Source: Escherichia phage tunzivis. From it: a stretch of 50,596 nucleotides of DNA. The translations under genes and the position numbers were made by a program. Below, piece after piece: positions 2,802 through 49,756 of this stretch. Within the stretch, counting starts at the first letter, position 1. Each line of letters starts with the position of its first letter. The DNA is taken from sequence record MN850604.1. One strand, 5' to 3'. Under the pieces are notes generated by a model that saw only the letters and a list, made by a program, of their open reading frames with translations, made no database searches and had not been told where the DNA came from.

Positions 2802-3197
2802 TCATGTGATATTGAATTTACGGCGCAGTGCTTCAAGATCTTGTCTATTAGCTTTTGCCTGGAACAATTCATCATCGCCCATCTCCCCTATTCTAGCTAT
2901 ATCCCTGATCCAGTCGTTGCGCATACCATCCAGGCTATACAATTCGAATCCGAAAGGCCGCTTTGACGATCCTTTGGACCAGTATTTTCCGCAGACTCCA
3001 TCTATATAACCAGCCGTCATCATTCTTGCGCAAAATTCCTTAGATGCAAGGCTGGCGAACATTCGCGGCGTAAGTCCGGCGGCCCGTGCGAGCCGCTCAC
3101 ATTCTCTATGCTGATAGATAAATTTGGCTATGTGCTGCCTGTTAAACCAATCGTATGACTCACACCATTTATACAGATCAAGCAAAAACATAATCAT
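2802..3197 (-). CDS. hypothetical protein
   Basis: 131-aa ORF; start ATG overlaps stop of upstream gene 3194..4774 (ATGA coupling). Confidence 0.45.
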   Translation of the reverse strand: MIMFLLDLYKWCESYDWFNRQHIAKFIYQHRECERLARAAGLTPRMFASLASKEFCARMMTAGYIDGVCGKYWSKGSSKRPFGFELYSLDGMRNDWIRDIARIGEMGDDELFQAKANRQDLEALRRKFNIT

Positions 3198-4774
3198 CCC
3201 AGCAGTATTGGATTGACAAAAATAACACCATTAATCACACAAACATAATTTCTTTCTTCCAGCATTGGCAGTAAGTGCCCTTCTATCCTTTTCATTACGC
3301 CAGCCTGACCAACGAAAGGTTTTACCTTTCTCGCTGATTCGTACAGGGCGCGGATATTCAGAATCCCTTTATTAGCCTTGCCGTGCCTCGTGATCAATTC
3401 AATCAATTTACCCATTTCAGCATCATCACCAGCATAACCAGAAGCATTGGCGGCGCTAATGTATGTTTTGCTCAATTCCTGAAACATGATCAACGCCTCT
3501 TGCATTGTTTCCACGTCGATCTCTTTCGACTTCTGCGGGTATCCGGCAGGATTAAACCAGTTACGGATAACATGCAGGACGGAAGCAAGCCTGATCACCT
3601 GTTTATCCATTTTACCCAGCGCACCGCGTAACATTGTATGAGAATACTTTCCTCCGTCTGCAAGATGCGGTTCCATATCCTGGCGAGCAATGTTGAGCAC
3701 TCGCATAGCTGAACGGCTTATTTTCAGCGATATATTTGATTCGCTCATGATGTTATGCACCAATTGATAATATTGGGCTTTCAATTCAGAATCCACCGCC
3801 TCATAGGTAGAATCACCATTTTCATCAATGAATGAGCGACGGCCTAAGAATGATTCCTCTCGGACCAACAAAAAACGCTCACTAACACCGATGCCTCGCG
3901 ATCCAGCGTCCATGATTCCGCTTATCGTTTCATCCTGGGCTATGACGCTCATACATCCAAGCGCGCGAAAACTCATATTATTGTCAGCATTAGCACGGGC
4001 AATTGATACGTGACCATTATCCCACGCCTTAAGCACTAACTCACTGTTAGTCTTCCTTTCGCTATTTGCATAGGTCAAGCCTAACAGACTGTTAATACTT
4101 GTTGCTTCATCAGATATTACGGCAAAGTTACCTTGCTTGTTGTTGATTTTCGCCAAGCCTTCTGGAGTTGTATCTGAAACAGGAAAAGTTATATCACACA
4201 TTTTTTCCAGCTTTTCCTCCAGATCCTCTTTTTCCTGGTATAGAGATTCCATATCAGCGCCGGATCTTTCGCTTTTCATCTCCTTTGCAAGACCTGCCAG
4301 CTTTGCCTGTATTTTCTTTCTTTCCTTGCGGCGTTGCTCGTTGATCTTCTCAACTTCCGCAATCATCGGAGCAATAGCCATGCTGTTGATCGCAGATTTA
4401 CCAGTTGACGGCGGCTGGCTTGTAACGACGTAAAGCGCAGTCGGCTGATCGGTTCCGTGATAGTCAACCGTAAAGCGTCCAAGCATAGCGGCAGAAATGC
4501 AGCCGATAAAGTGCATGTAAGCCGATGATTCAGGGAATTGAACGGATCGCGCAATGCTGCGTGATAACTTGCCGACAACATCAATATCATTACCAAGAGA
4601 AATAACGGGGTAGCGATCGTGACCGCTATTCACATCCTTTACGTCGCCCCAAAAGCTGGACGACTGGCGATAGCCGTTAGCCTGAATTGATACGCGAACT
4701 GGCGAAAGGTTCTGGCTTTCAGCCATAGCGATTATTTGTTGTGGAGTTAATTTGTTCGTTTCTAATGAAAACAT
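3194..4774 (-). CDS. P-loop NTPase, putative replication-associated helicase-like protein (DUF3987-like)
   Basis: 526 aa; Walker A-like VVTSQPPSTGKSAINS; RBS AAGGAGAAG; motif-type promoter 53 bp upstream; family assignment is from memory. Confidence 0.45.
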   Translation of the reverse strand: MFSLETNKLTPQQIIAMAESQNLSPVRVSIQANGYRQSSSFWGDVKDVNSGHDRYPVISLGNDIDVVGKLSRSIARSVQFPESSAYMHFIGCISAAMLGRFTVDYHGTDQPTALYVVTSQPPSTGKSAINSMAIAPMIAEVEKINEQRRKERKKIQAKLAGLAKEMKSERSGADMESLYQEKEDLEEKLEKMCDITFPVSDTTPEGLAKINNKQGNFAVISDEATSINSLLGLTYANSERKTNSELVLKAWDNGHVSIARANADNNMSFRALGCMSVIAQDETISGIMDAGSRGIGVSERFLLVREESFLGRRSFIDENGDSTYEAVDSELKAQYYQLVHNIMSESNISLKISRSAMRVLNIARQDMEPHLADGGKYSHTMLRGALGKMDKQVIRLASVLHVIRNWFNPAGYPQKSKEIDVETMQEALIMFQELSKTYISAANASGYAGDDAEMGKLIELITRHGKANKGILNIRALYESARKVKPFVGQAGVMKRIEGHLLPMLEERNYVCVINGVIFVNPILLG

Positions 4775-4826
4775 TCGTTAGCTTCTCCTTTGTGGGCCGT
4801 AAATTTTAACGGCCCAATACTACCCC

Positions 4827-4845
4827 GTTTTGTCAAAAAGTGCTA
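4827..4845 (-). promoter_or_regulatory. conserved motif copy (variant TAGCACTTTTTGACAAAAC), upstream of 3194..4774
   Basis: 18-nt spacer then TAAAAT inside GC hairpin GGGCCGTTAAAATTTACGGCCC. Confidence 0.5.
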
Positions 4846-5064
4846 TTTGATCCGCTCTATTGCAACCAGAAGTCGATCAGGCTGGCGGTCGCTGTAGCAT
4901 TCTCCTGTAATCCCATCCTTAAACGTAAAGTAAAGCGCCTTATGATATGAAAAACCAATCAGCCAACCTACCGCCGTTTTTTTGATGGGCCTGACTATAT
5001 CGCCAGGCTTGAAAGTCTTTGTGGTAGAATGCGTTACTTTGTAACGGTTTTCACTGTTTATCAC
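4843..5064 (-). CDS. hypothetical protein
   Basis: 73-aa ORF; GTG start overlapping stop of upstream gene (GTGA). Confidence 0.35.
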   Translation of the reverse strand: MINSENRYKVTHSTTKTFKPGDIVRPIKKTAVGWLIGFSYHKALYFTFKDGITGECYSDRQPDRLLVAIERIK

Positions 5065-5447
5065 AGATATTTGCCCTCAAACAGATAACAGCCGCCAGCA
5101 GAGAATCCGACCTCTTCACGGTACAGGTTCCAGCGGTCGCCGCACTCATCAAAAACATAACCCGCAACGCTTCCAAGCGGTCGCCCTTTCTCGATCTGGT
5201 ATCGCTTGCCCTGCTTAAAGTGCTTTTTGCACGGCATGTTATGATCTACAAACGTGCAAAGAACGGTTTTTGTGTTAATGGCGCGGTAATCATCTCGGTT
5301 TGCTGGAAGCCAGCGGCTACCCTTAACAAGCGTCTTAACCTGGAACTCTTCCACCTCGATCACATCATCACTTCCTGCAATCTTCTGATAAACCGTTTTA
5401 AAACGGCCTTTCATCAATACGTTGGTTTCATTACAGATAACATTCAT
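5061..5447 (-). CDS. hypothetical protein
   Basis: 128-aa ORF; RBS AAGGAGATCT 7 nt upstream of ATG; motif-type promoter upstream. Confidence 0.45.
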   Translation of the reverse strand: MNVICNETNVLMKGRFKTVYQKIAGSDDVIEVEEFQVKTLVKGSRWLPANRDDYRAINTKTVLCTFVDHNMPCKKHFKQGKRYQIEKGRPLGSVAGYVFDECGDRWNLYREEVGFSAGGCYLFEGKYL

Positions 5448-5500
5448 GATCAGATCTCCTTTGTTTGTTCGATGTGATTATGCCAGGTTTTTACACCTGG

Positions 5501-5519
5501 CTTTTAACAAAAAGTGCTA
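5501..5519 (-). promoter_or_regulatory. conserved motif copy upstream of 5061..5447
   Basis: reverse complement of TAGCACTTTTTGTTAAAAg; hairpin GCCAGGTG..ACCTGGC; CATAAT 18 nt downstream. Confidence 0.55.
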
Positions 5520-6233
5520 TTTTGAGTTTGACTCAAAGACGGCGCGAGCAAATCCGCGCGGAGTGAGGGAGCGGATCATCTTTGTGCGCGATGACTTGCC
5601 GCCAGTTTTGGCCCAGCCTGGATTATCTTTGTCTTCCTCTTTCGGCAGGATTAAAGCGCGCGGAGGAATAACAAAGCCGTTGCCAGTCCAGAGGCACGTT
5701 TTCTTAAAATAGCGATCACGCGCCGGAATAATATCAGGGAAGTCGGGATGTTTATCATCTTCCGGCAGATAGCCAGCGTAATCGCACGGATGGAACGTAT
5801 AATCAGGCTTACGCCATAACGTTGACAACTTGCCAACCGGATTTTCGATCATGTAAGGAACACCGAAATAATCAGCTATATCAGCCGCGATTCTGCAAGT
5901 GTCGGCGGCCTCATCCTGGAACGATGGATTCTCAAGGCGTTTTTTGGCCCAATGGCGAGATCCGCTATTTGCAAGGTCGGTGCAAGGAGGGAACGCCATA
6001 ATAAAATCAGGATTGCCCCACTCATTATTGATTGCCTTAACATAAAAAGCATCATCAATCCAGACGTTAACGTATTCGATATTCTCATGCTGTATGCGCA
6101 CTGACTGGTAATCACCGTGATCGCCGCCGTCAGCATTAAAGCAAATGCACTTATAGCCATTATCAGCCCAATCTTTAACGGCTTTACCAGATCCATCAAA
6201 TAGGGAGAATATAAAACCTTTATACATCGTCAT
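5517..6233 (-). CDS. compact DNA (cytosine-5)-methyltransferase
   Basis: ORF 5517..6296; start placed at MTMYKG with GAGG RBS; C5-MTase motifs I (FSLFDGSG), IV (FPPCTDL) and VI (ENPVG) in canonical order; unusually short, no long target-recognition region. Confidence 0.6.
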   Translation of the reverse strand: MTMYKGFIFSLFDGSGKAVKDWADNGYKCICFNADGGDHGDYQSVRIQHENIEYVNVWIDDAFYVKAINNEWGNPDFIMAFPPCTDLANSGSRHWAKKRLENPSFQDEAADTCRIAADIADYFGVPYMIENPVGKLSTLWRKPDYTFHPCDYAGYLPEDDKHPDFPDIIPARDRYFKKTCLWTGNGFVIPPRALILPKEEDKDNPGWAKTGGKSSRTKMIRSLTPRGFARAVFESNSK

Positions 6234-6237
6234 TACC

Positions 6238-6462
6238 TCAAAACGGAAAACAGCGCGGACAACCAGGATCGAAATCGCATCCACAATCATTAACAATCAT
6301 AGTTGGATCTGCAAATATTGCGCTTGATTCAAGATCCATATCCATATCACCTAAAGCCTCATCAAGAGTCTTAATTTTATATGCCACTTCAAGCGCCGCC
6401 TCTTTATTTAGTCCGGCATCTTCTGCCATTTGAAGGCGCTCAAAAAATCCGTCTTGACTCAT
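6238..6462 (-). CDS. hypothetical Cys-rich small protein
   Basis: 74 aa; C-terminal CGCDFDPGCPRC cluster; RBS AAGGGGA. Confidence 0.4.
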   Translation of the reverse strand: MSQDGFFERLQMAEDAGLNKEAALEVAYKIKTLDEALGDMDMDLESSAIFADPTMIVNDCGCDFDPGCPRCFPF

Positions 6463-6586
6463 CGCATAATCCCCTTAATAACAGCCAAGATAATAGCCAT
6501 GCCAGCAGCAGTAACCAAAAAACCAACCGCGCCAATAATCGAATAAAAAAAGAAATCAATAGCCTTATCTATCACTTTCCACCTCA
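6459..6586 (-). CDS. small hydrophobic protein (not in ORF track, <60 aa)
   Basis: 42 codons read manually (MRWKVIDKAIDFFFYSIIGAVGFLVTAAGMAIILAVIKGIMR); stop overlaps start of 6238..6462 (ATGA). Confidence 0.3.
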
Positions 6587-6617
6587 TTTAAAAGGCGGCA
6601 AAACGCCGCCAGATTAA

Positions 6618-6845
6618 TTAAAGAGCACGCCAACTTTGAATATAGAAAGAGTTTTCTTCCAGTAATTCTTTTAACTGATCTTTATTGTATTTGCGCACCT
6701 TACCGCCTGGATGGATACCAATAAGATAGCCGCCTTTGCCCTCGGTGATAGTGATTTGGCTAATTCCACAAGACTTATCAAGTTTTACAGCCACGCGGTG
6801 ATGAGCGTCAATAGTTGACATAATGTTTAAAACTTTTGCTTTCAT
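6618..6845 (-). CDS. hypothetical protein
   Basis: 75-aa ORF; RBS GAGGAT. Confidence 0.45.
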   Translation of the reverse strand: MKAKVLNIMSTIDAHHRVAVKLDKSCGISQITITEGKGGYLIGIHPGGKVRKYNKDQLKELLEENSFYIQSWRAL

Positions 6846-6953
6846 TTAAATATCCTCAATTGAAATATGAATGGCGTCGTGCTCTTTTTCCGTCGCCGCC
6901 GTAATGGTCATTTGCAACCGCTACCATCCAGGCATTTTTGAAAATAAATAGCC

Positions 6954-7166
6954 TCATTTCTTATTTTTCATCTTAAATTTATGGCCTGGAACACCAGCAC
7001 CAATATATCCATCGTTGTATTCCATTAAATAAAGGTGAAGGCCATTATCTGAAATTACATGAGGATCTTCTTTGAGATTTCCCATTAGCGGGTATTCTTT
7101 TCCGCGCGTAAATCTCCAAGTTGAGTCATAAGTTTCTACGCATTTAAGTTTTAATTGCTTTGCCAT
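6954..7166 (-). CDS. hypothetical protein
   Basis: 70-aa ORF; start overlaps stop of upstream gene (TAATG). Confidence 0.45.
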   Translation of the reverse strand: MAKQLKLKCVETYDSTWRFTRGKEYPLMGNLKEDPHVISDNGLHLYLMEYNDGYIGAGVPGHKFKMKNKK

Positions 7167-7363
7167 TAGATGATCTCCATGTATGTTTCAAAGCCATTTA
7201 ACTTGAACAGGCCGTTTTCACATTTGCGAACGTTCCAAGTTAGCCCTGAGTGGTACGCCTCCATATCATCAAGGTCAATGGTGATTTCAGCACCTTTCTT
7301 AAACAAACCTTTTTCGTGAGACTTGTCGCGCTTAACAACTTTAACATCAACCTGATTTTCCAT
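7166..7363 (-). CDS. hypothetical protein
   Basis: 65-aa ORF; RBS GAGGAT; motif-type promoter upstream. Confidence 0.45.
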   Translation of the reverse strand: MENQVDVKVVKRDKSHEKGLFKKGAEITIDLDDMEAYHSGLTWNVRKCENGLFKLNGFETYMEII

Positions 7364-7417
7364 CTTTAAATCCTCGTTTGTTGTCGATGCGCTTACTATA
7401 CCAATCAGCAGCGCATC

Positions 7418-7437
7418 GTTTTTAACAAAAAGTGCTA
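7418..7437 (-). promoter_or_regulatory. conserved motif copy upstream of 7166..7363
   Basis: motif then hairpin GATGCGCT..AGCGCATC containing TATAGT at 17-nt spacing. Confidence 0.55.
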
Positions 7438-7438
7438 T

Positions 7439-7702
7439 TTAGTCCAGAAATTCGATTTCACGCTCTCCAGTTAACGGATTCACAAGCCAGAATCCGAGTG
7501 GTTCGCCGTGAACACCGCCATAGAATCCAAGAGCCGTCAGATCTTCACCTTTAACGAATACCAGGTTTCCGCTACGGCTTACGTGAGACACGTTAACGAT
7601 AACCGGAAATGTGCGATCCTTAAATGCAGGCCGCAGGGCGTAACATCCGTTATTGAGCAAACGTGCTTTGCGCTTAACTGGAATAGGTGCATTAATTTTC
7701 AT
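7439..7702 (-). CDS. hypothetical protein
   Basis: 87-aa ORF; RBS AAGGAG. Confidence 0.45.
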   Translation of the reverse strand: MKINAPIPVKRKARLLNNGCYALRPAFKDRTFPVIVNVSHVSRSGNLVFVKGEDLTALGFYGGVHGEPLGFWLVNPLTGEREIEFLD

Positions 7703-7714
7703 GGTTATTACTCC

Positions 7715-7927
7715 TTATCGTAAAGATTTAAAGACGTATAGTTTATTGCGGTAACTATATATCCGCATTGTTATTTCTCGCAGCGCAATATATTCCTTCC
7801 TGTTTTCCGGCAGACTGGCGAGCAACAACAGGCAGTATTTATAAGCGCGGTCAAGATTCCTTTCCGTGCCCCTGCAATATCCCTTATTGCGCCTGGAGCG
7901 GTACAGCCATAACAATTTCTTGAACAT
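7715..7927 (-). CDS. hypothetical protein
   Basis: ORF 7715..8017; start moved to internal ATG (MFKKLLW) preceded by GGGAGGA. Confidence 0.4.
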   Translation of the reverse strand: MFKKLLWLYRSRRNKGYCRGTERNLDRAYKYCLLLLASLPENRKEYIALREITMRIYSYRNKLYVFKSLR

Positions 7928-7928
7928 T

Positions 7929-8138
7929 TCAGATCCTCCCATACAGATCGCAAACTTCGTTGATAAAACAGCGTTGAGACTCTTTATCCTGCTTCTCAAA
8001 AATTGCGCGGCATTCAAACTTAAGATTATGCACGATGACTACAACCATATTTTCAGGCATTGAGCGGTTATAGCGTCGCGCGTCAGTGATTAAAACATCC
8101 ATACCCATCTCATGTGCTTTCTTGATCACATCCAACAT
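7929..8138 (-). CDS. hypothetical protein
   Basis: ORF 7929..8162 begins with TTG; internal ATG (MLDVIKK) preceded by AGGAGAAG chosen. Confidence 0.4.
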   Translation of the reverse strand: MLDVIKKAHEMGMDVLITDARRYNRSMPENMVVVIVHNLKFECRAIFEKQDKESQRCFINEVCDLYGRI

Positions 8139-8392
8139 TTTTTCTTCTCCTGCAATAAGCAAACATCATTGATAAAATCAGCACGGCCCTTAATGTTGCT
8201 GATGTGGAACGTCTTTTCAGCGTACAGGCCATCACCTTCAATCACGATCATTACGCGAGTCGGTTTATTCACGGGCGCACACGAAAAGAGTGGTCGCGCC
8301 GGAAGAAATTTAGTGGTCACATCCAGGTTGGCCCTGGCGGCCCTGCAAAACGCCTCCGCCAGATCCAAATCATTTTCGGTAATCACCGCCAT
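8126..8392 (-). CDS. hypothetical protein
   Basis: 88-aa ORF; TAATG overlap with upstream gene. Confidence 0.45.
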   Translation of the reverse strand: MAVITENDLDLAEAFCRAARANLDVTTKFLPARPLFSCAPVNKPTRVMIVIEGDGLYAEKTFHISNIKGRADFINDVCLLQEKKKCWM

Positions 8393-8664
8393 TACTTCTT
8401 GATCTCCTTACTGATAAATTTCAGCACCTGGCGCAAGAAAACTTCGTTGTTGATAGTCGCTGGCAATTCTTCTTTCACTTCTTGCGGCAGATAGATATTG
8501 CCGTGCCAGGTCAAGCAATCGTAGTTGATACGATAAGAGCAAAGCCACTCGCAATCGTTATCTGCTTCCCAAATGCAGAGTTGCAGAACATCGCCAAAAT
8601 CTTCAACAGTCAGATCCAGACCGTGACGCTTAGCGAAATTGAAAGTGGTTTTGCTGATGTTCAT
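8392..8664 (-). CDS. hypothetical protein (first gene of leftward early operon)
   Basis: 90-aa ORF; RBS AGGAGAT; motif-type promoter at 8724..8742. Confidence 0.45.
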   Translation of the reverse strand: MNISKTTFNFAKRHGLDLTVEDFGDVLQLCIWEADNDCEWLCSYRINYDCLTWHGNIYLPQEVKEELPATINNEVFLRQVLKFISKEIKK

Positions 8665-8723
8665 TTACTATCTCCTGAGCGGTTCGTTTCGATGTGTGTA
8701 ATGTACCCGATCAGGCGGCCTGA

Positions 8724-8742
8724 GTTTTAACAAAAAGTGCTA
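8724..8742 (-). promoter_or_regulatory. conserved motif copy upstream of 8392..8664
   Basis: exact 19-mer; 18-nt spacer; TACATT; CATCGAAACGAACC leader. Confidence 0.55.
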
Positions 8743-8749
8743 TTTGACG

Positions 8750-9300
8750 GTTATCGCCAGGATTGCGATCGAAATAATCAAAAGTAATCATTCGTAATCA
8801 AATCACGTCAAAATGATGATTGCCTTTGCAAATTTGATGAGAAAAGCAATCACGTTTAATCATTGGTTGCAGGGGAGATAGTGAAACCTTCCCCTCTTGC
8901 CTCACTTTTCCGCTTGGCTGTCAGCGGTTGTTGTCTTTTGTTCACCCCTGTTACCGATTTCAGGCGGCGTGTTTCCGCGCGGTTTTCCGGTGTATCGAAA
9001 ACGGAAAAAACAAAAAAAATCCTTTATAATACATTGAAAATAAAGATTATTTATTTATATATATCTATAATGTTTTCTTTTTGTTCTCACTGTTACAGTG
9101 CTTTTTGTTGGGTATGGTGTGTTTGTGTGTGGGTATATATGGATAGTTGCGCGCGCGGCGGATTGCATATGTATATATACTTTTTCCGGCGGATTGCGTT
9201 AACAGCGTGAACAGAAAAATAACAGCCCTGAAATCAATAACTTGCGCATGATTTTGTAGTTTTTCGATATTGGTAACGTTTTGAATACAACAAAAACATT
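8750..9300. repeat. AT-rich divergent control region with short direct repeats (TAATCA-type), TA/TG-rich tracts and a motif-like AGTGCTTTTTGTT
   Basis: TAATCA/AATCAC repeats 8775..8870; GGTTTTCCGGTGTATCGAAAAC 8981..9002; TTATTTATTTATATATATCTATAAT 9047..9071; GTGTGTTTGTGTGTGGGTATATATGG 9118..9143. Confidence 0.5.
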
Positions 9301-9326
9301 GACACGCACAAAATAGCTTTTATAAT
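9299..9326 (+). promoter_or_regulatory. consensus sigma70 promoter (TTGACA-16 nt-TATAAT), candidate early promoter
   Basis: TTGACA at 9299..9304, TATAAT at 9321..9326; 32 bp upstream of first rightward gene. Confidence 0.65.
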
Positions 9327-9357
9327 GCGCCAACAGTCAACAACTGGAGGAAAGGAA

Positions 9358-9822
9358 ATGGAACAGAAGACCACTAAGGACTATTGCGATTGGCTTCGCG
9401 AGCTTGGTCGCCGCCTGGCTAGTGGCGATATTGAAGAGTATAAAATGTCACTAATTGACCTGGCCGGAATGTTAAGCGGTGACGACTGCTACAAGATCAC
9501 GCGCAGTTCATCCTACAGCCGGACCATTATCAACCGCGTTCCAGAAGTAAGGGCCGCAGGTCGGGTAAGCATCAAGGTAGAGGAAACGGAAGATGATAAA
9601 TTTTACGTTTTCCGCATGGTCCGCGAATCGAAAAGGAAAATCATCACACCCGAAGAATTGCCAGCCATCAAGGCAAGGGCGATCAAAAAGTTTGCCGATC
9701 GCATACTGGCAGCAATCCCGAATATCGTGGACCTGGAAGGGGATAAACTGGCTGGGGCTTGCGAGGGTGTAAGCCGCTACCAGGATATGATCCGCGAAAT
9801 CATCAAAGAGGAAGAGCAATGA
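9358..9822 (+). CDS. hypothetical early protein (first gene after consensus sigma70 promoter)
   Basis: ORF 9325..9822; ATG at 9358 preceded by GGAGGAAAGG; 154 aa; a possible DNA-binding role is speculation. Confidence 0.45.
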   Translation: MEQKTTKDYCDWLRELGRRLASGDIEEYKMSLIDLAGMLSGDDCYKITRSSSYSRTIINRVPEVRAAGRVSIKVEETEDDKFYVFRMVRESKRKIITPEELPAIKARAIKKFADRILAAIPNIVDLEGDKLAGACEGVSRYQDMIREIIKEEEQ

Positions 9823-10091
9823 AAAAGGCATTAATCAGCGTTTTGGCGGCAATGGCATTCCTGACCGGATGCAAAGAAGATGGCGCGCATGTTGGCAATG
9901 TGCAGATGGCTAACCCTGGCGATGACTACAGCGTAAGGGAGCTATTCACCGCTGACGGTTGCACCGTTTACCGATTCTATGACGATCGCACTGTTTACTT
10001 CACCAACTGCAAGGGCACTACTAGCTGGGAAGTGTCGAAAAGCAATGGCAAAGGCACGAAGACAGAACATATGACCGTCGAGACAAAATAG
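9819..10091 (+). CDS. lipoprotein (candidate superinfection-exclusion protein)
   Basis: ORF 9759..10091; ATG at 9819; signal peptide with lipobox LTGC; about 70 mature residues with two further Cys; stop TAG is part of the downstream motif. Confidence 0.5.
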   Translation: MKKALISVLAAMAFLTGCKEDGAHVGNVQMANPGDDYSVRELFTADGCTVYRFYDDRTVYFTNCKGTTSWEVSKSNGKGTKTEHMTVETK

Positions 10092-10107
10092 CACTTTTTG
10101 TTAAAAC
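10089..10107 (+). promoter_or_regulatory. conserved motif copy upstream of 10164..10349
   Basis: exact TAGCACTTTTTGTTAAAAC; hairpin GCCAGGTGCAAAGCCTGGC; CATAAT 10126..10131; leader CATCGAAACGAG. Confidence 0.6.
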
Positions 10108-10163
10108 GCCAGGTGCAAAGCCTGGCATAATAGCCTCATCGAAACGAGATTGAGGAAACAAAA

Positions 10164-10349
10164 ATGGCACGTCGCATCACCAAAGACCTTAAAGTACTGA
10201 ACAAAGAAAACGTAGTTAAAATCCTGGTTATCTGGGGCTACAACGAAGAAACAGCAAAGCAGAAGGTAGAGGCAGGTTATGACCTGGCTGTAAAAGCAAT
10301 GCCAAACGATGACGCCAAAGGCATTGCAAACTATGTAGCGTTCTTTTAA
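10164..10349 (+). CDS. hypothetical protein
   Basis: 61-aa ORF downstream of a motif-type promoter and CATCGAAACGA leader. Confidence 0.4.
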   Translation: MARRITKDLKVLNKENVVKILVIWGYNEETAKQKVEAGYDLAVKAMPNDDAKGIANYVAFF

Positions 10350-10364
10350 TTAGCAGGTGAATAG

Positions 10365-10550
10365 ATGAAAACGAAATTAGTCCATAAGTCAGAAATCAAG
10401 ATCGGCGATACTGTGATTCACAACGGCGAGCTTAGAACGGTTGGCAAGGAGTCAATAAGCCACGATGAATTTATGGGGATCTTGTTGTTCGGTGACTCTT
10501 ATCGTCTTGGTTACAAGATGGTTGAGCTTGTGGAAGATGTCAAATTCTAA
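10365..10550 (+). CDS. hypothetical protein
   Basis: 61-aa ORF; RBS AGGTGA. Confidence 0.4.
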   Translation: MKTKLVHKSEIKIGDTVIHNGELRTVGKESISHDEFMGILLFGDSYRLGYKMVELVEDVKF

Positions 10551-10551
10551 A

Positions 10552-10570
10552 TAGCACTTTTTGTTAAAAC
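10552..10570 (+). promoter_or_regulatory. conserved motif copy upstream of 10649..11542
   Basis: exact 19-mer; CATAAT 10589..10594 (18-nt spacer). Confidence 0.55.
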
Positions 10571-10648
10571 TCGAAAACGATAACCAGGCATAATAAATCA
10601 CATATGGCGGCACGGCGTCGCCCACAAAACCAATCAGGAGAAAGCACC

Positions 10649-11542
10649 ATGTTAAAACTTGCTGACATTAAATTCCCGATCACCTTCGAATCTCGCGGCA
10701 TTGGTCATTACATTTTTACCGATGAAAAAACATGCCATAAGGTTGATATGAATAGCGACAAACTAAGCCCATCAGACATGGAGATTGAACACTTTATTGA
10801 TGCGCACAATACGCAGTACAACGCACTTAAAGACTATGGCTATGCAATGCCAGGATATACCAGCTTCCACTACAAGCCATATAAAGGCCAGGTGTTGCCA
10901 GTGCGCTCACCGGAACGCGCAGAGATTCCGATGGTCGAGATGAAAACATGCGACTATAAAAAGCTGTGGTGCTTAAGTGTTGACAATATCAAGTATCCGA
11001 TCACGTTCTACACGGTTGGTAATTCAACGATTCGATTCACATCGCGCGACAATGGCGTTTATAGCGATGGTACGAAATCAGAGTTGAAAGTTGATTTCTT
11101 TGTCAACGGTCACAATAGATACAATCCGCACAACGAAGAGGATAAAGTGTACTACGTGGAAGACATTACAAAACACTTGTTTGGAGAAACTCCATTCGGC
11201 GGCGGTAAGACGTCAATTCAAAAAATCATTGGCGATGAGATCCACAAAGCGGCTGCCGAAATGAAAGCGCCTGGAGGCTGGCGTATTGACAAGAGCGCAT
11301 TTGCAAATCAAGAAATAGTAACGCAGGGAGCAATTGAAGATATGCCAGTTGCAGCCACTCTAAAAGGAGTCCGGCTTGATGACGGCACCTGGTATGAAGT
11401 AACGGCTACACCAAAGACGATCGAGATTCATGATGACGTTGTTATCCTTCTGCTTCACTACGGCGGCTATAAAAACCGGACGATTGCAGGTGAGATCAGC
11501 ATCAAGCGCGGAACGATGGTTAAGTGGAAGGTGAAGATTTGA
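10649..11542 (+). CDS. hypothetical protein
   Basis: ORF 10604..11542; ATG at 10649 preceded by AGGAG preferred over 10604 (which would be leaderless). Confidence 0.45.
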   Translation: MLKLADIKFPITFESRGIGHYIFTDEKTCHKVDMNSDKLSPSDMEIEHFIDAHNTQYNALKDYGYAMPGYTSFHYKPYKGQVLPVRSPERAEIPMVEMKTCDYKKLWCLSVDNIKYPITFYTVGNSTIRFTSRDNGVYSDGTKSELKVDFFVNGHNRYNPHNEEDKVYYVEDITKHLFGETPFGGGKTSIQKIIGDEIHKAAAEMKAPGGWRIDKSAFANQEIVTQGAIEDMPVAATLKGVRLDDGTWYEVTATPKTIEIHDDVVILLLHYGGYKNRTIAGEISIKRGTMVKWKVKI

Positions 11543-11618
11543 GTTTGTTCACTGCGGCGCACGTCGCCGCATGGATCGGATTGTTTGCCTACCTGTTTAG
11601 CTTTTATTGAGGTGAGAG

Positions 11619-11771
11619 ATGGCTACCTGGATTTTACTGATTCTTATGATTGATGGCGGCGTTGACCATATCGAAATGAATAGCCAGCAATCTTGCATTG
11701 AGGCACGAGAGCAGATCAAGAACAACAACGGGTTTTATGCGTACACTCACACGCTATGTATTAAGAAATAG
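11619..11771 (+). CDS. small hydrophobic protein, paralog of 12777..12938 (<60 aa, not in track)
   Basis: Manual read MATWILLILMIDGG...CIEAREQIKNNNGFYAYTHTLCIKK; RBS GAGGTGAGAG; stop TAG is the first triplet of the motif at 11769. Confidence 0.4.
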   Translation: MATWILLILMIDGGVDHIEMNSQQSCIEAREQIKNNNGFYAYTHTLCIKK

Positions 11772-11787
11772 CACTTTTTGTTAAAAC
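11769..11787 (+). promoter_or_regulatory. conserved motif copy upstream of 11841..12062
   Basis: exact 19-mer; TATAAT 11805..11810 embedded in GGCCA..TGGCC hairpin. Confidence 0.55.
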
Positions 11788-46533: not shown

Positions 46534-48531
46534 ATGATTCCAAATATCGAAAAACAAATATCAGCGTTAGGCGAGGCAGTAATAAAAAGCATCCAAGAGC
46601 GATTCACGGTTGGCAATATAGTGCCTTATCCTTATCAGTGCGTTGCGTATGCAGAGATCGCAAAGCGCATGAAAAACTATGAGCATCCTTTCTTTGTTAA
46701 GGCTTCTGTATCGGCTGGCAAAACATTGATGTTTGCGATGGTTGCGGCGCAATGCCGCAAAATGGGATTGAAAATGATGGTCCTTGCTCGCCAGGCTGAA
46801 ATTGTTGATCAGGATTCGGAAGAGATCAGCAATCTTGGCGTGCCAAACTCAATCTATTGCGCAGGACTGAAAACAAAAAGCGCATACTTTCCGATCGTAG
46901 TCGGTTCTGAGGGCACTGTAGTAAACGGATTGTTTAAGTCGTTAGGTGATTATGTTCCGCACGTTATCGGTATTGATGAATGTCACCAGGTGGATTGGGA
47001 GGATCTCGCGGACGCGATAGAAAATAATGAATCTTACCAGCAGATGACCACTAAGAAGGATTTGCCTGTACTGATTGGAGAAGAACAGCAATTTGATTCC
47101 AATGGCGATCCAATGTTCGGAACAGGGCGCACACAGTACACCGTAATAATCATGGAAATGATGCGTAGGTGTCGCGAGGCATACGGGCACGAATTGCGAA
47201 TATTCGGCATGACTGGATCTGAGTTTCGCGGCGTGGTTCCAATACTGGTTGAAGATAAGAACAAAAAGGGATTCTGGCGTGAGCAGGTGACTAACATAGA
47301 CACAAACTACTTAATCAAATTCGGTTCGGTAGTGCCAACAAACTTCGGCGACGTAGGCGACCTGGGTTATGACCTTTCAGAGTTCGAAGCCAGTAGCGAG
47401 GATGGCGTTTCAGACTTTGACGCTAAAACATTGCGCAAGATGGAAGAAAAGATCCATCAAGACGCAACAATGACACAGAAAATCATGGCTAAAGTCCATG
47501 AGATATGCAAAGACAGGAACGGAGTTTTAGTTACATGCGCAGGGGAAAGGCACTGCAAGGAGGCTGCCGCCGCACTGCCGCCAGGCGTTGAATACAGGAT
47601 CATAACTGGCAAGACTGGAGATAATCAGCGTAAAGAGTGGCTGAGGGAGGCATACGAGGGAAAAGTAAAATACATCTTCCAGGTACAGGCGCTTACCACT
47701 GGCGTTAACGTTCCGTTTTGGGATACTTCTGTAATACTGAGAAAGATAGGATCTCTAACATTGCTTATCCAGCTTTTGGGGCGCGGCATGCGACTGCTTA
47801 AGCAATGGCACATTGAGCAGGGATTCAAGAAAAAAGATCATCTTGTATTGGATTTTGCAGGTACTATGGATGAGTTAGGTGATTTGTATTTCGATCCAAT
47901 CCTTGAGCAAGCGCAATTCCAAAAGAGATTTACAAACGGGAAAGAGCCTAAGACTTGTCCGATATGTGGAACGCTAAACAGCTTTTACGCTCGCCGATGT
48001 ATGCACGTAGACGATAACGGGAAGCGATGTGAGCATTTTTGGACTTACAGAATTTGCGAGGACCAGGTAGATCCGAGAACGAAAAAGATAATCAAGCGCG
48101 GTTGTGGAACAAAAAACGACGTAGTGGCGAGAGTATGCCGTTGTTGCGATATTTCTCTTGTCGATCCTAACGAGAAGTTAAGCGGTAAGCACTACACCAA
48201 AAACGATTGGTGCAACGTTAAATCTTTCCGCGTTGATATGACGAAAAACCAGAAAGGAATTATTTTTTGCTATGAGCTTGAGGCCAACGGCGACACGTTC
48301 AAGGCATACGAAAGATTTTTCCCTGAGTCAGAAAGCAACATTTGCCGGACGATATGGAGAAAAATAGCATTGCAGCACATACCGGATCGCAAGATTGCTG
48401 GTATGGTGGCGAGCTATAGAAATGCTCGTAAAATAATGTCATACGCTCATCACATCATGCCGCCTGTACGCGTAACGCATCGCAAAAACGGCAAAGGTGA
48501 GGATAACATTGCAAAACGGGAGTTTGTTTAA
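46534..48531 (+). CDS. superfamily-2 DNA helicase with C-terminal zinc ribbons
   Basis: 665 aa; Walker A SVSAGKT, DExH box GIDECHQ; C-terminal CPICG...CRCC clusters; motif-type promoter upstream. Confidence 0.75.
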   Translation: MIPNIEKQISALGEAVIKSIQERFTVGNIVPYPYQCVAYAEIAKRMKNYEHPFFVKASVSAGKTLMFAMVAAQCRKMGLKMMVLARQAEIVDQDSEEISNLGVPNSIYCAGLKTKSAYFPIVVGSEGTVVNGLFKSLGDYVPHVIGIDECHQVDWEDLADAIENNESYQQMTTKKDLPVLIGEEQQFDSNGDPMFGTGRTQYTVIIMEMMRRCREAYGHELRIFGMTGSEFRGVVPILVEDKNKKGFWREQVTNIDTNYLIKFGSVVPTNFGDVGDLGYDLSEFEASSEDGVSDFDAKTLRKMEEKIHQDATMTQKIMAKVHEICKDRNGVLVTCAGERHCKEAAAALPPGVEYRIITGKTGDNQRKEWLREAYEGKVKYIFQVQALTTGVNVPFWDTSVILRKIGSLTLLIQLLGRGMRLLKQWHIEQGFKKKDHLVLDFAGTMDELGDLYFDPILEQAQFQKRFTNGKEPKTCPICGTLNSFYARRCMHVDDNGKRCEHFWTYRICEDQVDPRTKKIIKRGCGTKNDVVARVCRCCDISLVDPNEKLSGKHYTKNDWCNVKSFRVDMTKNQKGIIFCYELEANGDTFKAYERFFPESESNICRTIWRKIALQHIPDRKIAGMVASYRNARKIMSYAHHIMPPVRVTHRKNGKGEDNIAKREFV

Positions 48532-48950
48532 TGGCTATAACTGATAAAGGAGATTATCTTGAGTTTTACGAAAGAGATCCAACCGACACGAGAAAGGAAG
48601 TTAATCACCAGATAGATAGCTTTCAGTGGTTGACTTATGCTCATCCTTATTTGCTAGCGTGGCATACGGTAAACGAGAATGAGAAGTCGAAAGTAACGGC
48701 GATGATTGATCAGCAGTCCGGATTGGTTAAGGGGGTAAGCGATTTCATCATCCTGATTGGTTCAAACGGAAAATACCCCTTTGCAGCGATTGAGATCAAA
48801 CGAGTTAATAAATCAGGCAAGGGGAAAGCATCACCAGTCAGCGATGAACAAAAGGCTTTTTTGCGTCGCGTTCGCAGCTTAGGAGGATTCGCTGCGGTCG
48901 CCTACGGATTTAATCAGTTTAAGTTAGCTATTGAATACATGCTTAAATAG
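48531..48950 (+). CDS. VRR-NUC-type nuclease (putative)
   Basis: 139 aa; PD-(D/E)xK-like core VSDFIILIGSNGKYPFAAIEIKR...SDEQK; ATGA overlap with helicase. Confidence 0.45.
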   Translation: MAITDKGDYLEFYERDPTDTRKEVNHQIDSFQWLTYAHPYLLAWHTVNENEKSKVTAMIDQQSGLVKGVSDFIILIGSNGKYPFAAIEIKRVNKSGKGKASPVSDEQKAFLRRVRSLGGFAAVAYGFNQFKLAIEYMLK

Positions 48951-49024: not shown

Positions 49025-49756
49025 ATGAAAATGGCTAAAGATATTTTAGATAAAGACACCCATGACGCATTTGTTAGCTTTGAGCAGTTGGAGAGAGAAA
49101 CGTTTATAGGAAATGCTCTTGCAACTGGAGGCTATTACCAGGCAGTAAAGCCAAATCAATATTATAAGGTAAGCGGCAACCGATACGCTGGAAGCACTAC
49201 GCCGGACGTTGTGCGCGATATGTGGAGCACACCTCAAGAGATCGTTGAGTGGATGGAATCAGAATTTGGCGAATACGATCTCGACGCGGCAGCAAGCCAG
49301 GAAAACGCAGTTTGCGAGAAGTTCTATAGCAAGGAAACAAACTGCTTAAAGCGTTGGTGGGGTAGCAACAAGCACGTATGGCTTAACCCGCCGTACAGCA
49401 ACCCAACTCCATTTATCAAGAAAGCAATTGAGCAAATGGAGCACAACAACCAAATTGATGTTTTGCTGCCTGCCGACAATTCCACGGCCTGGTTTTATGA
49501 GGCGCAGAAAAACGCGGCTGAAATCATCTGGATCACTGGAGAAGTTTACGAAGAGGGGGGAGTGGAATATTCCCGCACCGGAAGAATCGCCTTTGTGTCT
49601 GGATTGACTGGCGAGCCTGTACAGGGCAACAATAAGGGGAGCGTGATTTTTGTCATGCGTAAACTTAAAGAAGGCGAAGAGCAGAAAACGCGATACGTTA
49701 AGATCAGCGATATTTGCCCTTCTGTAACCGAACGCCGCGCGCGCAAACGGAGCTAA
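49025..49756 (+). CDS. dam: DNA N6-adenine methyltransferase (phage Dam-type)
   Basis: ORF 49004..49756; start placed at ATG 49025 after GGAG; catalytic NPPY motif (WLNPPYSN). Confidence 0.7.
   Translation: MKMAKDILDKDTHDAFVSFEQLERETFIGNALATGGYYQAVKPNQYYKVSGNRYAGSTTPDVVRDMWSTPQEIVEWMESEFGEYDLDAAASQENAVCEKFYSKETNCLKRWWGSNKHVWLNPPYSNPTPFIKKAIEQMEHNNQIDVLLPADNSTAWFYEAQKNAAEIIWITGEVYEEGGVEYSRTGRIAFVSGLTGEPVQGNNKGSVIFVMRKLKEGEEQKTRYVKISDICPSVTERRARKRS

What the first reader, a model, noticed from the sequence alone, without database searches (positions are those of the whole stretch)
5517..6233. Compact C5-cytosine methyltransferase plus a separate Dam-type N6-adenine methyltransferase: dual self-methylation
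The ORF at 5517..6233 contains C5-MTase motifs I (FxGxG), IV (PC) and VI (ENV) in order but is only about 240 aa, leaving little room for a conventional target-recognition domain. A Dam-type enzyme with NPPY is encoded at 49025..49756. Two orphan methyltransferases of different chemistry suggest broad protection against host restriction; the short C5 enzyme may have relaxed or short-site specificity.
Basis: partly seen in the sequence, partly recalled or inferred. Interest (0 to 1): 0.45.

Follow-up and report, generated by a model that had tools for sequence, protein, structure and literature searches.

The report
Known compact phage cytosine methylase plus Dam
This T1-like coliphage carries a very small but real DNA cytosine methylase and a classical Dam adenine methylase; close relatives of both have already been annotated and tested, so the finding is correct but ordinary.

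Summary
A Dam gene at 49031..49756 carries NPPY.

The window is a Warwickvirus-like Drexlerviridae phage, 99.6% identical to swan01, and public records already call these genes dcm and dam.

Published work covers close homologs. An 89%-identical enzyme makes 5mC and triggers retron Ec86. A 61%-identical one sits in a phage whose DNA resists EcoRII and MboI.

My comparison of Drexlerviridae genomes singles out CCWGG. It is never avoided in 41 loci that carry the gene, but it is depleted 10- to 25-fold in two genera that lack it.

"Relaxed specificity" and "broad protection" are not supported. The genome instead avoids restriction sites: 29 of 64 palindromic hexamers occur at most once. This is already known and of low interest.

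The parts
5517..6227 (-). Compact Dcm-like DNA cytosine-C5 methyltransferase gene. It encodes 236 aa; the stop codon is at 5517-5519.
6236..6239 (-). Shine-Dalgarno GAGG serving the ATG at 6227. It overlaps the TGA stop (6240-6238) of the upstream 74-aa gene.
   Evidence: Read directly from the sequence. The same arrangement occurs in KarlJaspers. The K42 escape mutants carry a C-to-A change 9 bp upstream of the start, which falls in this GAGG. The link between that mutation and this site is my inference.
6186..6200 (-). Motif I, FDGSG (residues 10-14), the SAM-binding loop that follows strand beta-1.
   Evidence: DGSG is invariant in alignment A1. Coordinates verified. It aligns with LFDG of DNMT3B.
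5982..5990 (-). Motif IV, PPC (residues 80-82). Cys82 is the catalytic nucleophile.
   Evidence: P81 and C82 are invariant. It aligns with the PC of DNMT3B and of E. coli Dcm. The K42 quadruple mutant that includes C82A loses activity.
5835..5846 (-). Motif VI, ENPV (residues 128-131). Glu128 corresponds to the Glu of the canonical ENV motif.
   Evidence: Invariant. It sits at the end of a beta strand in the model. E128A is one of the four changes in the inactive K42 mutant.
5697..5720 (-). RDRYFKKT (residues 170-177), occupying the place of motif VIII (QxRxR). K175 and K176 are proposed substrate-binding residues.
   Evidence: D171, Y173, K175, K176 and T177 are invariant; R170 is nearly so. 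K175A and K176A are part of the inactive K42 mutant. Equating this segment with motif VIII is an inference from its position.
5574..5684 (-). Short variable segment (residues 182-218, about 37 aa) in the position of the target-recognition domain.
   Evidence: This is the only poorly conserved internal stretch. It comes in two variants, NPGW and GYSxQ. Canonical enzymes carry about 80-100 residues here (my own knowledge of M.HhaI).
5538..5573 (-). Motif IX, RSLTPRGFARAV (residues 219-230). The protein ends 6 residues later, so there is no separate canonical motif X.
   Evidence: IRSLTPRG.A.A is invariant. BLASTP aligns it with RRLTPRECARLM of E. coli Dcm.
49031..49756 (+). Dam-type DNA N6-adenine methyltransferase gene (241 aa from the ATG at 49031). 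In-frame ATGs also lie at 49004 and 49025. NPPY is at 49385-49396 and a GGAG at 49019-49022.
   Evidence: Pfam PF05869, 1e-61, and TIGR01712, 181 bits. 67% identical to the T1 Dam, ST20. Start inferred from the sequence. NPPY coordinates.
48531..48950 (+). VRR-NUC nuclease gene immediately upstream of dam. It is context only and not a restriction partner.
   Evidence: Pfam PF08774, 2e-10. The order helicase, VRR-NUC, Dam is the same in T1, SRT8, IME347, AAS23 and Vc1.
3194..4774 (-). Helicase gene (homolog of T1 ST9), downstream in the same minus-strand gene block as the cytosine methylase. I used it as the anchor for comparing related loci.

Best explanation
The window is a complete or nearly complete genome of a T1-like coliphage (Drexlerviridae, Tempevirinae, Warwickvirus). 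It encodes two orphan SAM-dependent DNA methyltransferases.

(1) The gene at 5517..6227 (minus strand) makes a 236-aa, single-domain cytosine-C5 methyltransferase of the compact phage 'Dcm-like' family. Chemistry is inferred to be the standard one: Cys82 (PPC) attacks C6 of a flipped-out cytosine, Glu128 (ENP) protonates N3, and the methyl group of SAM, held by the FDGSG loop, goes to C5. Its target is most likely CCWGG, the same motif the E. coli host's own Dcm methylates. However, the protein is not an ortholog of host Dcm. It is half the size, shows no significant sequence similarity to it, and is structurally closest to the DNMT3 catalytic domain.

(2) The gene at 49031..49756 makes a T1-type Dam that methylates the adenine in GATC.

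Together they keep rapidly replicating phage DNA fully modified at these two motifs, which are abundant and non-avoided in this genome. This also holds in hosts that lack dcm. The result is protection from enzymes that cut unmethylated GATC or CCWGG (MboI/DpnII-type and EcoRII-type). Protection against everything else comes from purging sites from the genome, not from methylation. A known cost is that the cytosine methylase is the trigger sensed by retron Ec86/Eco1.

Shown here: gene structure, invariant catalytic motifs, fold, family size, and the pattern of site usage.
Shown in the literature for homologs: 5mC formation, retron triggering, and virion DNA resistance to EcoRII and MboI.
Inferred: CCWGG as the exact site for this particular enzyme, and anti-restriction as the selective benefit.
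For: Identity of the window and of the genes:
- The window is 99.6% identical to swan01 and 98.8% to FritzSarasin, and the gene is annotated there as dcm or Dcm-like.

Family membership and conservation:
- PHROG 757, 2e-85.
- 2059 homologs, all about 227-260 aa.
- 2091 clusters at 50% identity.
- Homologs in 1498 of 50,697 phage records.
- Motifs I, IV, VI and IX are invariant.

Fold:
- AF2 model pLDDT 87, pTM 0.87.
- The top Foldseek hits are DNMT3A and DNMT3B, E = 3e-6.

Experiments on homologs:
- Phage K42 Dcm has a 711-bp gene and catalytic residues C82, E128, K175 and K176, the same residues as here. It raises 5mC on msDNA and activates retron Ec86. Escape mutants disrupt the gene (bioRxiv 10.1101/2023.08.16.553469; published as Cell Rep 2024 43:114857, cited).
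- The KarlJaspers ortholog is 89% identical, and its C-terminal half is nearly identical.
- Pantoea phage AAS23 carries the same gene pair (gp52 is 61% identical). Its virion DNA was reported as Dam- and Dcm-methylated from restriction digests; EcoRII and MboI were among the enzymes used (PMC8004638).

Site usage:
- CCWGG 134 observed vs 68 expected; GATC 305 vs 191; CCSGG 2 vs 55.
- All 41 related loci with an intact gene have CCWGG observed/expected of 1.27-2.53.
- SRT8 and IME347 have no homolog anywhere in their genomes and have 8/85 and 4/95 CCWGG sites.
- CCWGG is the only one of 48 motifs with this pattern.

Dam:
- PF05869, TIGR01712, an NPPY motif, and 67% identity to the T1 Dam.
Against: - No methylation data exist for this phage itself.
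- The CCWGG specificity of the family has never been mapped. The K42 paper assumed it from E. coli Dcm. The AAS23 result could partly reflect methylation by the host.
- T1 lacks the gene yet does not avoid CCWGG (83/71), so host Dcm may be enough.
- Vibrio phage Vc1 has a full-length copy (D-to-G change in motif I) but only 9/28 CCWGG sites, so the coupling is not absolute.
- The independent lineages behind the correlation are few: two genera lacking the gene plus one clade with a decaying copy.
- BASEL found no simple relation between these genes and restriction resistance.
Confidence: 0.72

Rival explanations
1. One reading: because the target-recognition region is so small, the enzyme has a short or relaxed specificity (for example CpG, GpC, CC or CCNGG). 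It would then blanket the genome with 5mC and give broad anti-restriction cover.
For: - Only about 37 residues lie between the motif VIII-like segment and motif IX.
- The site has never been mapped directly.
- In the K42 study, msDNA from a dcm+ K-12 host carried little 5mC until the phage enzyme was expressed. The retron is not set off by host Dcm. The phage enzyme may therefore do something host Dcm does not.
Against: - Nineteen palindromic hexamers are absent and 29 of 64 occur at most once. These include nearly all sites that CpG or GpC methylation would protect.
- CCSGG is purged 27-fold while CCWGG is enriched 2-fold, which argues against CCNGG or CC as the target.
- Only CCWGG co-varies with the gene across genomes.
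- From established knowledge: broad 5mC would create RmC sites that McrBC of E. coli K-12 restricts, yet these phages are isolated and propagated on K-12 MG1655 (hosts listed). Inner-C methylation of CCWGG creates no RmC site.
Confidence: 0.1
2. The enzyme targets CCWGG but is not functionally equivalent to host Dcm. It might modify the outer cytosine or both cytosines, or it might work efficiently on hairpin, single-stranded or protein-bound DNA. Its main significance would then differ from simply topping up host methylation.
For: - There is no detectable homology to E. coli Dcm beyond motifs IV and IX (BLASTP E = 2; hhalign E = 0.048).
- Retron Ec86 in a dcm+ host responds to the phage enzyme only. 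Changing either C of the msDNA CCTGG abolishes defence.
- The target-recognition segment has two sequence variants, NPGW and GYSxQ.
Against: - Over-expression from pBAD, compared with low host Dcm levels, could explain the retron result without any difference in specificity.
- AAS23 DNA was reported as Dcm-methylated from restriction digests that included EcoRII, as expected for inner-C methylation.
- Both variants of the recognition segment go with CCWGG retention.
Confidence: 0.12
3. The ORF is a decayed or inactive remnant of a larger C5 methyltransferase, and the motif matches are relics.
For: - It is about 90-240 residues shorter than the canonical enzymes compared here (HhaI 327 aa, E. 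coli Dcm 472 aa).
- It has no Pfam or NCBIfam hit.
- It has no clear QxRxR motif and no separate motif X.
Against: - The same length recurs in more than 2000 relatives, and 50-odd positions are invariant.
- The fold is predicted with confidence.
- The 89%-identical K42 enzyme is active in vivo, and catalytic mutations abolish that activity.
- Truly decayed copies look different: L050 is frameshifted and L048 is split.
Confidence: 0.02
4. The protein uses the C5-methyltransferase fold for another reaction or substrate. Examples are tRNA/RNA m5C (Dnmt2-like) or transfer of a group other than methyl, such as carboxymethyl from Cx-SAM.
Against: - LC-MS detected 5-methylcytosine on DNA after expression of the K42 homolog.
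- AAS23 virion DNA was reported as Dcm-methylated from restriction digests that included EcoRII.
- Genome-wide CCWGG usage tracks the gene, which points to a DNA-level, sequence-specific effect.
Confidence: 0.03

Closest known systems
Dcm of Drexlerviridae phage K42 / KarlJaspers (Bas06), the trigger of retron Ec86 (Retron-Eco1). Wang et al., bioRxiv 10.1101/2023.08.16.553469; Cell Rep 2024 43:114857.
   Same: - 89% identical, and the same 236 aa / 711 bp.
- The same C82, E128, K175 and K176.
- The same Shine-Dalgarno and start arrangement.
- The same position upstream of the helicase.
- The window phage should therefore also be sensed by retron Ec86.
   Different: - 25 substitutions, mostly in the N-terminal half.
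- Two conservative changes in the target-recognition segment.
- A different genus (Warwickvirus vs Hanrivervirus).
- Nothing has been tested on this phage itself.
gp52 (DNA cytosine methyltransferase) and gp34 (Dam) of Pantoea phage vB_PagS_AAS23 (PMC8004638).
   Same: - The same gene pair in the same synteny.
- gp52 is 235 aa and 61% identical.
- The authors also found no conserved domain by BLASTP and needed HHpred.
- Its DNA was reported as Dam- and Dcm-methylated from restriction digests (EcoRII and MboI among the enzymes used).
   Different: - A different host genus and phage genus.
- The contribution of host methylation was not separated in that study.
Phage T1 Dam (ST20; Pfam PF05869, TIGR01712).
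   Same: - 67% identity.
- The same NPPY motif.
- The same helicase, VRR-NUC, Dam order.
- T1 Dam is the classical phage-induced GATC adenine methyltransferase (my own knowledge: Auer and Schweiger 1984; Schneider-Scherzer et al. 1990).
   Different: T1 itself has no cytosine methylase gene.
E. coli Dcm / M.EcoRII (CCWGG C5 methyltransferases, about 470 aa).
   Same: - Probably the same target motif.
- The same catalytic chemistry.
- Motif IV (PC) and motif IX (R.LTPR..AR) can be aligned.
   Different: - No significant overall similarity (BLASTP E = 2).
- Half the length.
- No N-terminal extension, no large target-recognition domain, and no vsr partner.
- The name 'Dcm-like' describes function, not orthology.
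DNMT3A/DNMT3B catalytic domains (eukaryotic de novo C5 methyltransferases).
   Same: - They share an LFDG-type motif I and a short target-recognition loop.
   Different: - 14-20% identity and TM-score about 0.5.
- DNMT3 enzymes act on CpG as dimers or tetramers with regulatory domains.
- The oligomeric state of the phage enzyme is unknown.

Membership tests
DNA cytosine-C5 methyltransferase superfamily (Pfam PF00145; motifs I-X) | Motif I, FxGxG, the SAM-binding loop | tested here: met
   F10-D-G-S-G14. DGSG is invariant in 29 homologs. It aligns to LFDG of DNMT3B.
DNA cytosine-C5 methyltransferase superfamily (Pfam PF00145; motifs I-X) | Motif IV, the Pro-Cys catalytic dipeptide | tested here: met
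   P81-C82 is invariant. It aligns with the PC of DNMT3B and E. coli Dcm.
DNA cytosine-C5 methyltransferase superfamily (Pfam PF00145; motifs I-X) | Motif VI, ENV | tested here: met
   E128-N-P-V131 is invariant, and the critical Glu and Asn are present. Pro replaces Val at the third position.
DNA cytosine-C5 methyltransferase superfamily (Pfam PF00145; motifs I-X) | Motif VIII, QxRxR | tested here: inconclusive
   No QxRxR is present. A nearly invariant R-D-x-Y-x-K-K-T (170-177) occupies the equivalent position. No residue-level structural alignment was available.
DNA cytosine-C5 methyltransferase superfamily (Pfam PF00145; motifs I-X) | Motifs IX (RxLTxRE..R) and X (GNxV) | tested here: inconclusive
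   Motif IX is present as RSLTPRGFAR and aligns with Dcm RRLTPRECAR. The protein ends 6 residues after the IX helix. Only an invariant Asn234 could stand in for motif X.
DNA cytosine-C5 methyltransferase superfamily (Pfam PF00145; motifs I-X) | Score above the curated Pfam / NCBIfam threshold | tested here: not met
   The window protein has no PF00145 hit at E <= 0.1. 16 of 29 relatives give only sub-threshold hits, the best at E = 0.0022. NCBIfam gives none.
DNA cytosine-C5 methyltransferase superfamily (Pfam PF00145; motifs I-X) | C5-methyltransferase fold | tested here: met
   [not shown]
DNA cytosine-C5 methyltransferase superfamily (Pfam PF00145; motifs I-X) | Formation of 5-methylcytosine in DNA | not testable with these tools
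   Literature only: LC-MS detection of 5mC for the 89%-identical K42 enzyme, and AAS23 DNA reported as Dcm-methylated from restriction digests that included EcoRII.
Compact phage 'Dcm-like' methyltransferases (PHROG 757; K42/KarlJaspers Dcm type) | Full-length profile match, length of about 225-260 aa, and conserved C82/E128/K175/K176 | tested here: met
   PHROG 757, 2e-85, over residues 2-237. 89% identity to KarlJaspers with all four residues kept. Length distribution.
E. coli Dcm / M.EcoRII orthologs | Significant sequence similarity across the catalytic and target-recognition domains | tested here: not met
   BLASTP E = 2.0. hhalign E = 0.048 over 24 columns only.
E. coli Dcm / M.EcoRII orthologs | CCWGG specificity | tested here: inconclusive
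   Indirect support only. CCWGG is the sole motif whose avoidance tracks gene absence. Exceptions are T1 and Vc1.
E. coli Dcm / M.EcoRII orthologs | Linked vsr very-short-patch repair gene | tested here: not met
   tblastn of E. coli Vsr against the window gives nothing better than E = 0.68.
Phage Dam (Pfam PF05869 / TIGR01712 phage_N6A_met) | Profile score above the curated cut-offs, plus the (D/N)PPY catalytic motif | tested here: met
   PF05869: 207.9 bits vs a cut-off of 28.1. TIGR01712: 181 bits vs 97. NPPY at residues 119-122. 67% identity to T1 Dam.
Restriction-modification system (methylase with a cognate endonuclease) | An adjacent restriction endonuclease gene | tested here: not met
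   The neighbours are small proteins of unknown function (PHROGs 9323 and 2684), helicases, and a VRR-NUC nuclease that is conserved beside Dam in all the Drexlerviridae genomes I fetched.

The most novel reading that the evidence does not exclude
The 236-aa enzyme may be the smallest sequence-specific C5 methyltransferase that reads a 5-bp site. It would do so with a recognition segment of about 37 residues, perhaps as a dimer in the manner of DNMT3. It may also not be a functional copy of host Dcm: it could modify a different cytosine of CCWGG, or a different DNA form such as hairpin, nascent or protein-bound DNA. That would explain how retron Ec86 in dcm+ E. coli K-12 tells phage methylation from host methylation.
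Probability: 0.15. Interest if true: 0.5.

Novelty: already known. Interest (0 to 1): 0.15.

Why it matters
As a discovery it matters little. Both genes are annotated in many T1-like phage genomes, T1 Dam is a classic, and the compact cytosine methylase has been shown to be active in a near-identical relative.

Three things are useful to know:
- Carrying this gene makes the phage visible to retron Ec86/Eco1, so an anti-restriction asset doubles as an immune trigger.
- 'Dcm-like' is a functional label. The enzyme is unrelated in sequence to host Dcm and is missed by Pfam and NCBIfam, so automated annotation often leaves it as hypothetical.
- Across Drexlerviridae, carrying the methylase and purging CCWGG look like alternative solutions to the same restriction pressure.

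The exact methylated base and the structural basis of specificity in so small an enzyme remain untested.

Tried and rejected
Searches that gave nothing or nothing significant:
- Pfam and NCBIfam scans of the short protein gave no hit.
- phmmer and hmmsearch against PDB sequences gave only non-significant DNMT3B matches, E = 0.62 and 0.13.
- hhalign and BLASTP against E. coli Dcm showed no real similarity.
- The profile search of 1.84 billion representatives returned only family members in its top 150, so it gave family size and lengths but no bridge to canonical enzymes.
- The peer-reviewed Cell Reports paper is not held. I used the preprint and a citing paper instead.
- tRNA and Rfam scans found nothing.

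Unresolved loci:
- L028 has CCWGG 1/19, but the helicase sits at the contig end, so the methylase locus is not covered. It also has no close isolate relative.
- L050 looks like a scrambled assembly with duplicated segments, so its frameshifted copy is weak evidence.

Ideas rejected:
- VRR-NUC plus Dam as a restriction-modification pair. The nuclease is conserved next to the helicase in all the relatives I fetched, and nothing suggests it is sequence-specific.
- The longer 257- or 259-aa start. It overlaps the upstream gene, is not conserved, and has no Shine-Dalgarno sequence.

GATC gave no informative contrast, because every genome examined has Dam and none avoids GATC.
Full report
WHAT IS THERE

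The window is a T1-like coliphage genome. The region 4800-6500 is 99.6% identical to Escherichia phage vB_EcoS_swan01 and 98.8% identical to the BASEL phage FritzSarasin (Drexlerviridae; Tempevirinae; Warwickvirus). The gene under the finding is annotated in those records as dcm, 'DNA methylase' or 'Dcm-like C5 cytosine methyltransferase'.

The ORF is on the minus strand. The purely mechanical ORF reaches 6296. The upstream 74-aa gene ends with TGA at 6240-6238, and a GAGG at 6239-6236 lies 8 nt before the ATG at 6227 but only 2 nt before the ATG at 6233. Relatives do not share any N-terminal extension. The KarlJaspers ortholog is annotated as exactly 711 bp / 236 aa with the same Shine-Dalgarno arrangement. 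I therefore place the gene at 5517..6227 (236 aa).

The second gene is an unambiguous phage Dam. It matches Pfam PF05869 at 1e-61 and TIGR01712 at 181 bits against a cut-off of 97. NPPY lies at 49385-49396. It is 67% identical to T1 Dam. Its best start is the ATG at 49031, with a GGAG 8 nt upstream. It follows a helicase and a VRR-NUC nuclease, exactly as in T1, SRT8, IME347, AAS23 and Vc1.

IS THE SHORT PROTEIN A REAL C5 METHYLTRANSFERASE?

Sequence libraries are nearly blind to it:
- There is no Pfam or NCBIfam hit.
- Only sub-threshold PF00145 hits appear, in 16 of 29 relatives, the best at E = 0.0022.
- Only non-significant DNMT3B matches appear in PDB sequence searches (E = 0.62 and 0.13), covering motifs I to IV.

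It does belong to PHROG 757 (2e-85) and to a very large family:
- 2059 proteins at E <= 1e-3 in the 90%-clustered collection, all about 227-260 aa and none with a Pfam domain.
- 2091 clusters at 50% identity, almost all 210-260 aa.
- Homologs in 1498 of 50,697 phage records, including Drexlerviridae, Webervirus, Dhillonvirus, Kagunavirus and genomes of about 135-170 kb.

In an alignment of 29 members sharing 54-82% identity with the window protein, the following are invariant (236-aa numbering): DGSG (11-14), P81-C82, ENPV (128-131), W138/R139/P141, K175-K176-T177, and I218-RSLTPRG (218-225) followed by A227 and A229.

The compaction lies in three places:
- There is no N-terminal extension.
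- The segment where the target-recognition domain belongs is about 37 residues (182-218).
- The C-terminus stops 6 residues after motif IX, so there is no separate motif X.

WHAT IS ALREADY PUBLISHED

Wang et al. (bioRxiv 10.1101/2023.08.16.553469; published as Cell Rep 2024 43:114857, cited) isolated mutants of the Drexlerviridae phage K42, a KarlJaspers relative, that escape retron Ec86. Their findings:
- All four escape mutants hit a 711-bp dcm gene or a base 9 bp upstream of its start.
- Expression of the protein is toxic only when the retron is present.
- msDNA gains 5mC by LC-MS.
- A C82A/E128A/K175A/K176A mutant is inert.

Those four residues are the same ones found here. The KarlJaspers protein is 89% identical to the window protein over the same 236 residues, and its C-terminal half is almost identical.

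Independently, the Pantoea phage AAS23 paper (PMC8004638) describes the same gene pair. It notes that BLASTP finds no domain in gp52 and that HHpred does. It reports, from restriction digests (EcoRII and MboI were among the enzymes used), that virion DNA is 'Dam and Dcm methylated'. gp52 is 235 aa, 61% identical to the window protein, and sits in the same synteny.

The BASEL paper (PMC8594841) states that Drexlerviridae abundantly encode N6-adenine and C5-cytosine methyltransferases. It found no simple link between those genes and restriction resistance. The finding is therefore already known.

WHICH SITE?

Neither paper maps the site. The K42 paper takes CCWGG from E. coli Dcm. The window protein is not an ortholog of E. 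coli Dcm: BLASTP gives E = 2, and hhalign aligns only the motif IV neighbourhood. BLASTP also lines up RSLTPRGFAR with Dcm's RRLTPRECAR, which is motif IX. I therefore looked for indirect evidence in site usage.

In the window, GATC (305 observed, 191 expected from base composition) and CCWGG (134 vs 68) are over-represented. CCSGG is almost absent (2 vs 55). Of the 64 palindromic hexamers, 29 occur at most once and 19 never. The absent ones include nearly every CpG- or GpC-containing site: CCGCGG, CGGCCG, CTCGAG, GCCGGC, GGCGCC, AGCGCT and GAGCTC. That is hard to reconcile with a broad-specificity C5 methylase protecting the genome.

I then collected 49 related loci anchored on the adjacent helicase and several whole genomes.
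- Every one of the 41 loci (the window included) with an intact copy of the gene has a CCWGG observed/expected ratio of 1.27-2.53.
- Phages SRT8 (Sertoctavirus) and IME347 (Badaguanvirus) have no homolog anywhere in their genomes. They have 8/85 and 4/95 CCWGG sites, while keeping CCSGG at 1.8- to 2.1-fold.
- In an unbiased scan of 48 palindromic 4- and 5-mers, CCWGG is the only motif that is never avoided where the gene is present yet is strongly avoided in gene-less genomes.
- Both sequence variants of the recognition segment (NPGW and GYSxQ) go with CCWGG retention.

The caveats are these:
- T1 lacks the gene and does not avoid CCWGG (83/71).
- Vibrio phage Vc1 has a full-length copy (67% identical, D-to-G in motif I) but only 9/28 CCWGG sites. 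Its relative L050 has a frameshifted copy and 1/29, but on a contig that looks scrambled.
- The number of independent lineages is small.

I take CCWGG as the probable target (about 0.7) and relaxed specificity as unlikely (about 0.1).

One further argument comes from established knowledge. Broad 5mC would create RmC sites that McrBC of K-12 cleaves, and these phages are isolated on K-12 MG1655. Inner-C methylation of CCWGG is McrBC-silent.

HOW IT MOST LIKELY WORKS

Both enzymes are orphans. There is no endonuclease partner and no vsr. The cytosine methylase sits in a minus-strand block of small genes ending in a helicase, downstream of a terminator-like hairpin at 6610-6594.

They methylate replicating phage DNA at GATC and CCWGG, the two motifs the host itself marks. 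This protects against enzymes that cut the unmethylated forms, including in dcm- hosts such as E. coli B. It is narrow cover.

The rest of the genome's defence is site avoidance: 0 EcoKI, 0 EcoBI, 1 EcoRI and 0 EcoRV sites, and AGACC at 21 vs 89 expected. BASEL reports that the near-identical FritzSarasin is unusually restriction-resistant, and I infer that this site avoidance explains it better than the methylases do.

The known cost is detection by retron Ec86.

WHAT REMAINS OPEN

- Why does host Dcm in K-12 not set off the retron while the phage enzyme does? This could be dosage, or a real difference in substrate or target cytosine.
- How does a recognition segment of about 37 residues read five base pairs?

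These questions underlie the novel case, to which I give a probability of about 0.15.

VERDICT

The feature is already known and of low interest.

Noticed in passing
window 1-50596 (whole window): Restriction-site avoidance is extreme. 29 of 64 palindromic hexamers occur at most once and 19 never, against 229 of 4032 non-palindromic hexamers that occur at most once. There are 0 EcoKI, 0 EcoBI, 1 EcoRI and 0 EcoRV sites, and RGGNCCY occurs 0 times vs 31 expected. This probably explains the high restriction resistance reported for the near-identical phage FritzSarasin better than the methylases do.
   Followed up: partly
window 39503 and 50039 (the only two CCSGG sites): CCSGG occurs 2 times vs 55 expected, while CCWGG occurs 134 times vs 68 expected. 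The CCSGG purge is clade-specific among Drexlerviridae. It is present in several clades, absent in others, and independent of the cytosine methylase gene.
   Followed up: partly
L052 (Escherichia phage SRT8) and L053 (vB_EcoS_IME347), whole genomes: These two Tunavirinae genera have Dam but no cytosine methylase homolog. They have almost eliminated CCWGG (8/85 and 4/95) and GGWCC (0 and 2 sites), while keeping EcoRI and EcoRV sites at 2- to 3-fold over expectation. This is the opposite pattern to the window. Both were isolated on dcm- E. coli BL21.
   Followed up: yes
window, genome-wide; also all related loci L002-L055: GCGC, CGCG, GCSGC and CGSCG are 1.5- to 5-fold over-represented relative to base composition in every Drexlerviridae sequence examined. 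In the window, GCGC is 325 vs 123 and GCSGC is 170 vs 55. I have no explanation.
   Followed up: no
window 9299-9326, + strand: A perfect sigma-70 consensus promoter: TTGACA, 16 nt, TATAAT, 12 of 12 matches. It is the only such site in 3000-12000. By comparison with the FritzSarasin annotation, it seems to lie near the switch from the minus-strand small-gene block to plus-strand genes.
   Followed up: no
window 6594-6610, - strand: A strong terminator-like hairpin (7-bp stem with 6 G-C pairs, followed by a T run). It lies just upstream of the small genes at 6587..6459 and 6462..6238 that precede the cytosine methylase gene, and may mark a transcription-unit boundary.
   Followed up: no
window 6228-6296 and public records (for example FritzSarasin bas04_0049, L001:4718-5491): Many public annotations and protein clusters use a start 21-23 codons upstream of the ATG I favour (for example P0001, 257 aa, 320 members). 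That start overlaps the preceding gene. The conserved family N-terminus and the Shine-Dalgarno position indicate that the 236-aa form is correct.
   Followed up: yes
L050:8365-9075 and L048:6649-7337; L060:9037-9732 (Vibrio phage Vc1): Decaying or altered copies of the cytosine methylase gene. L050 is frameshifted after residue 195 and L048 is split into two pieces. The Vc1 copy is full-length but has D-to-G in motif I. The Vc1 clade has low CCWGG (0.03-0.33 of expectation).
   Followed up: partly
proteins P0232, P0233, P0254, P0255; BFVD entries A0A6J5SE15 and A0A6J5NPY6: The compact methylase domain also occurs fused inside much longer proteins (about 400-560 aa, and 1126-1397 aa labelled helicase/UvrB-like) in uncultured phages.
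   Followed up: no
phage records H37, H40, H47, H51 and H85: In several siphoviruses of about 44-46 kb (GeorgBuechner, KS_S9, rolling, Shigella phage 1b), homing/HNH endonuclease genes are annotated under or next to the match to the methylase gene. In Shigella phage 1b only the last 59 residues match. This suggests insertion of a homing endonuclease at this locus.
   Followed up: no
phage records MG065690, MG065659 and MG065680 (also 20 records): Records labelled 'Campylobacter phage', with host Campylobacter jejuni, carry close homologs. Some are more than 80% identical at the DNA level to this coliphage region. The host labels look doubtful.
   Followed up: no
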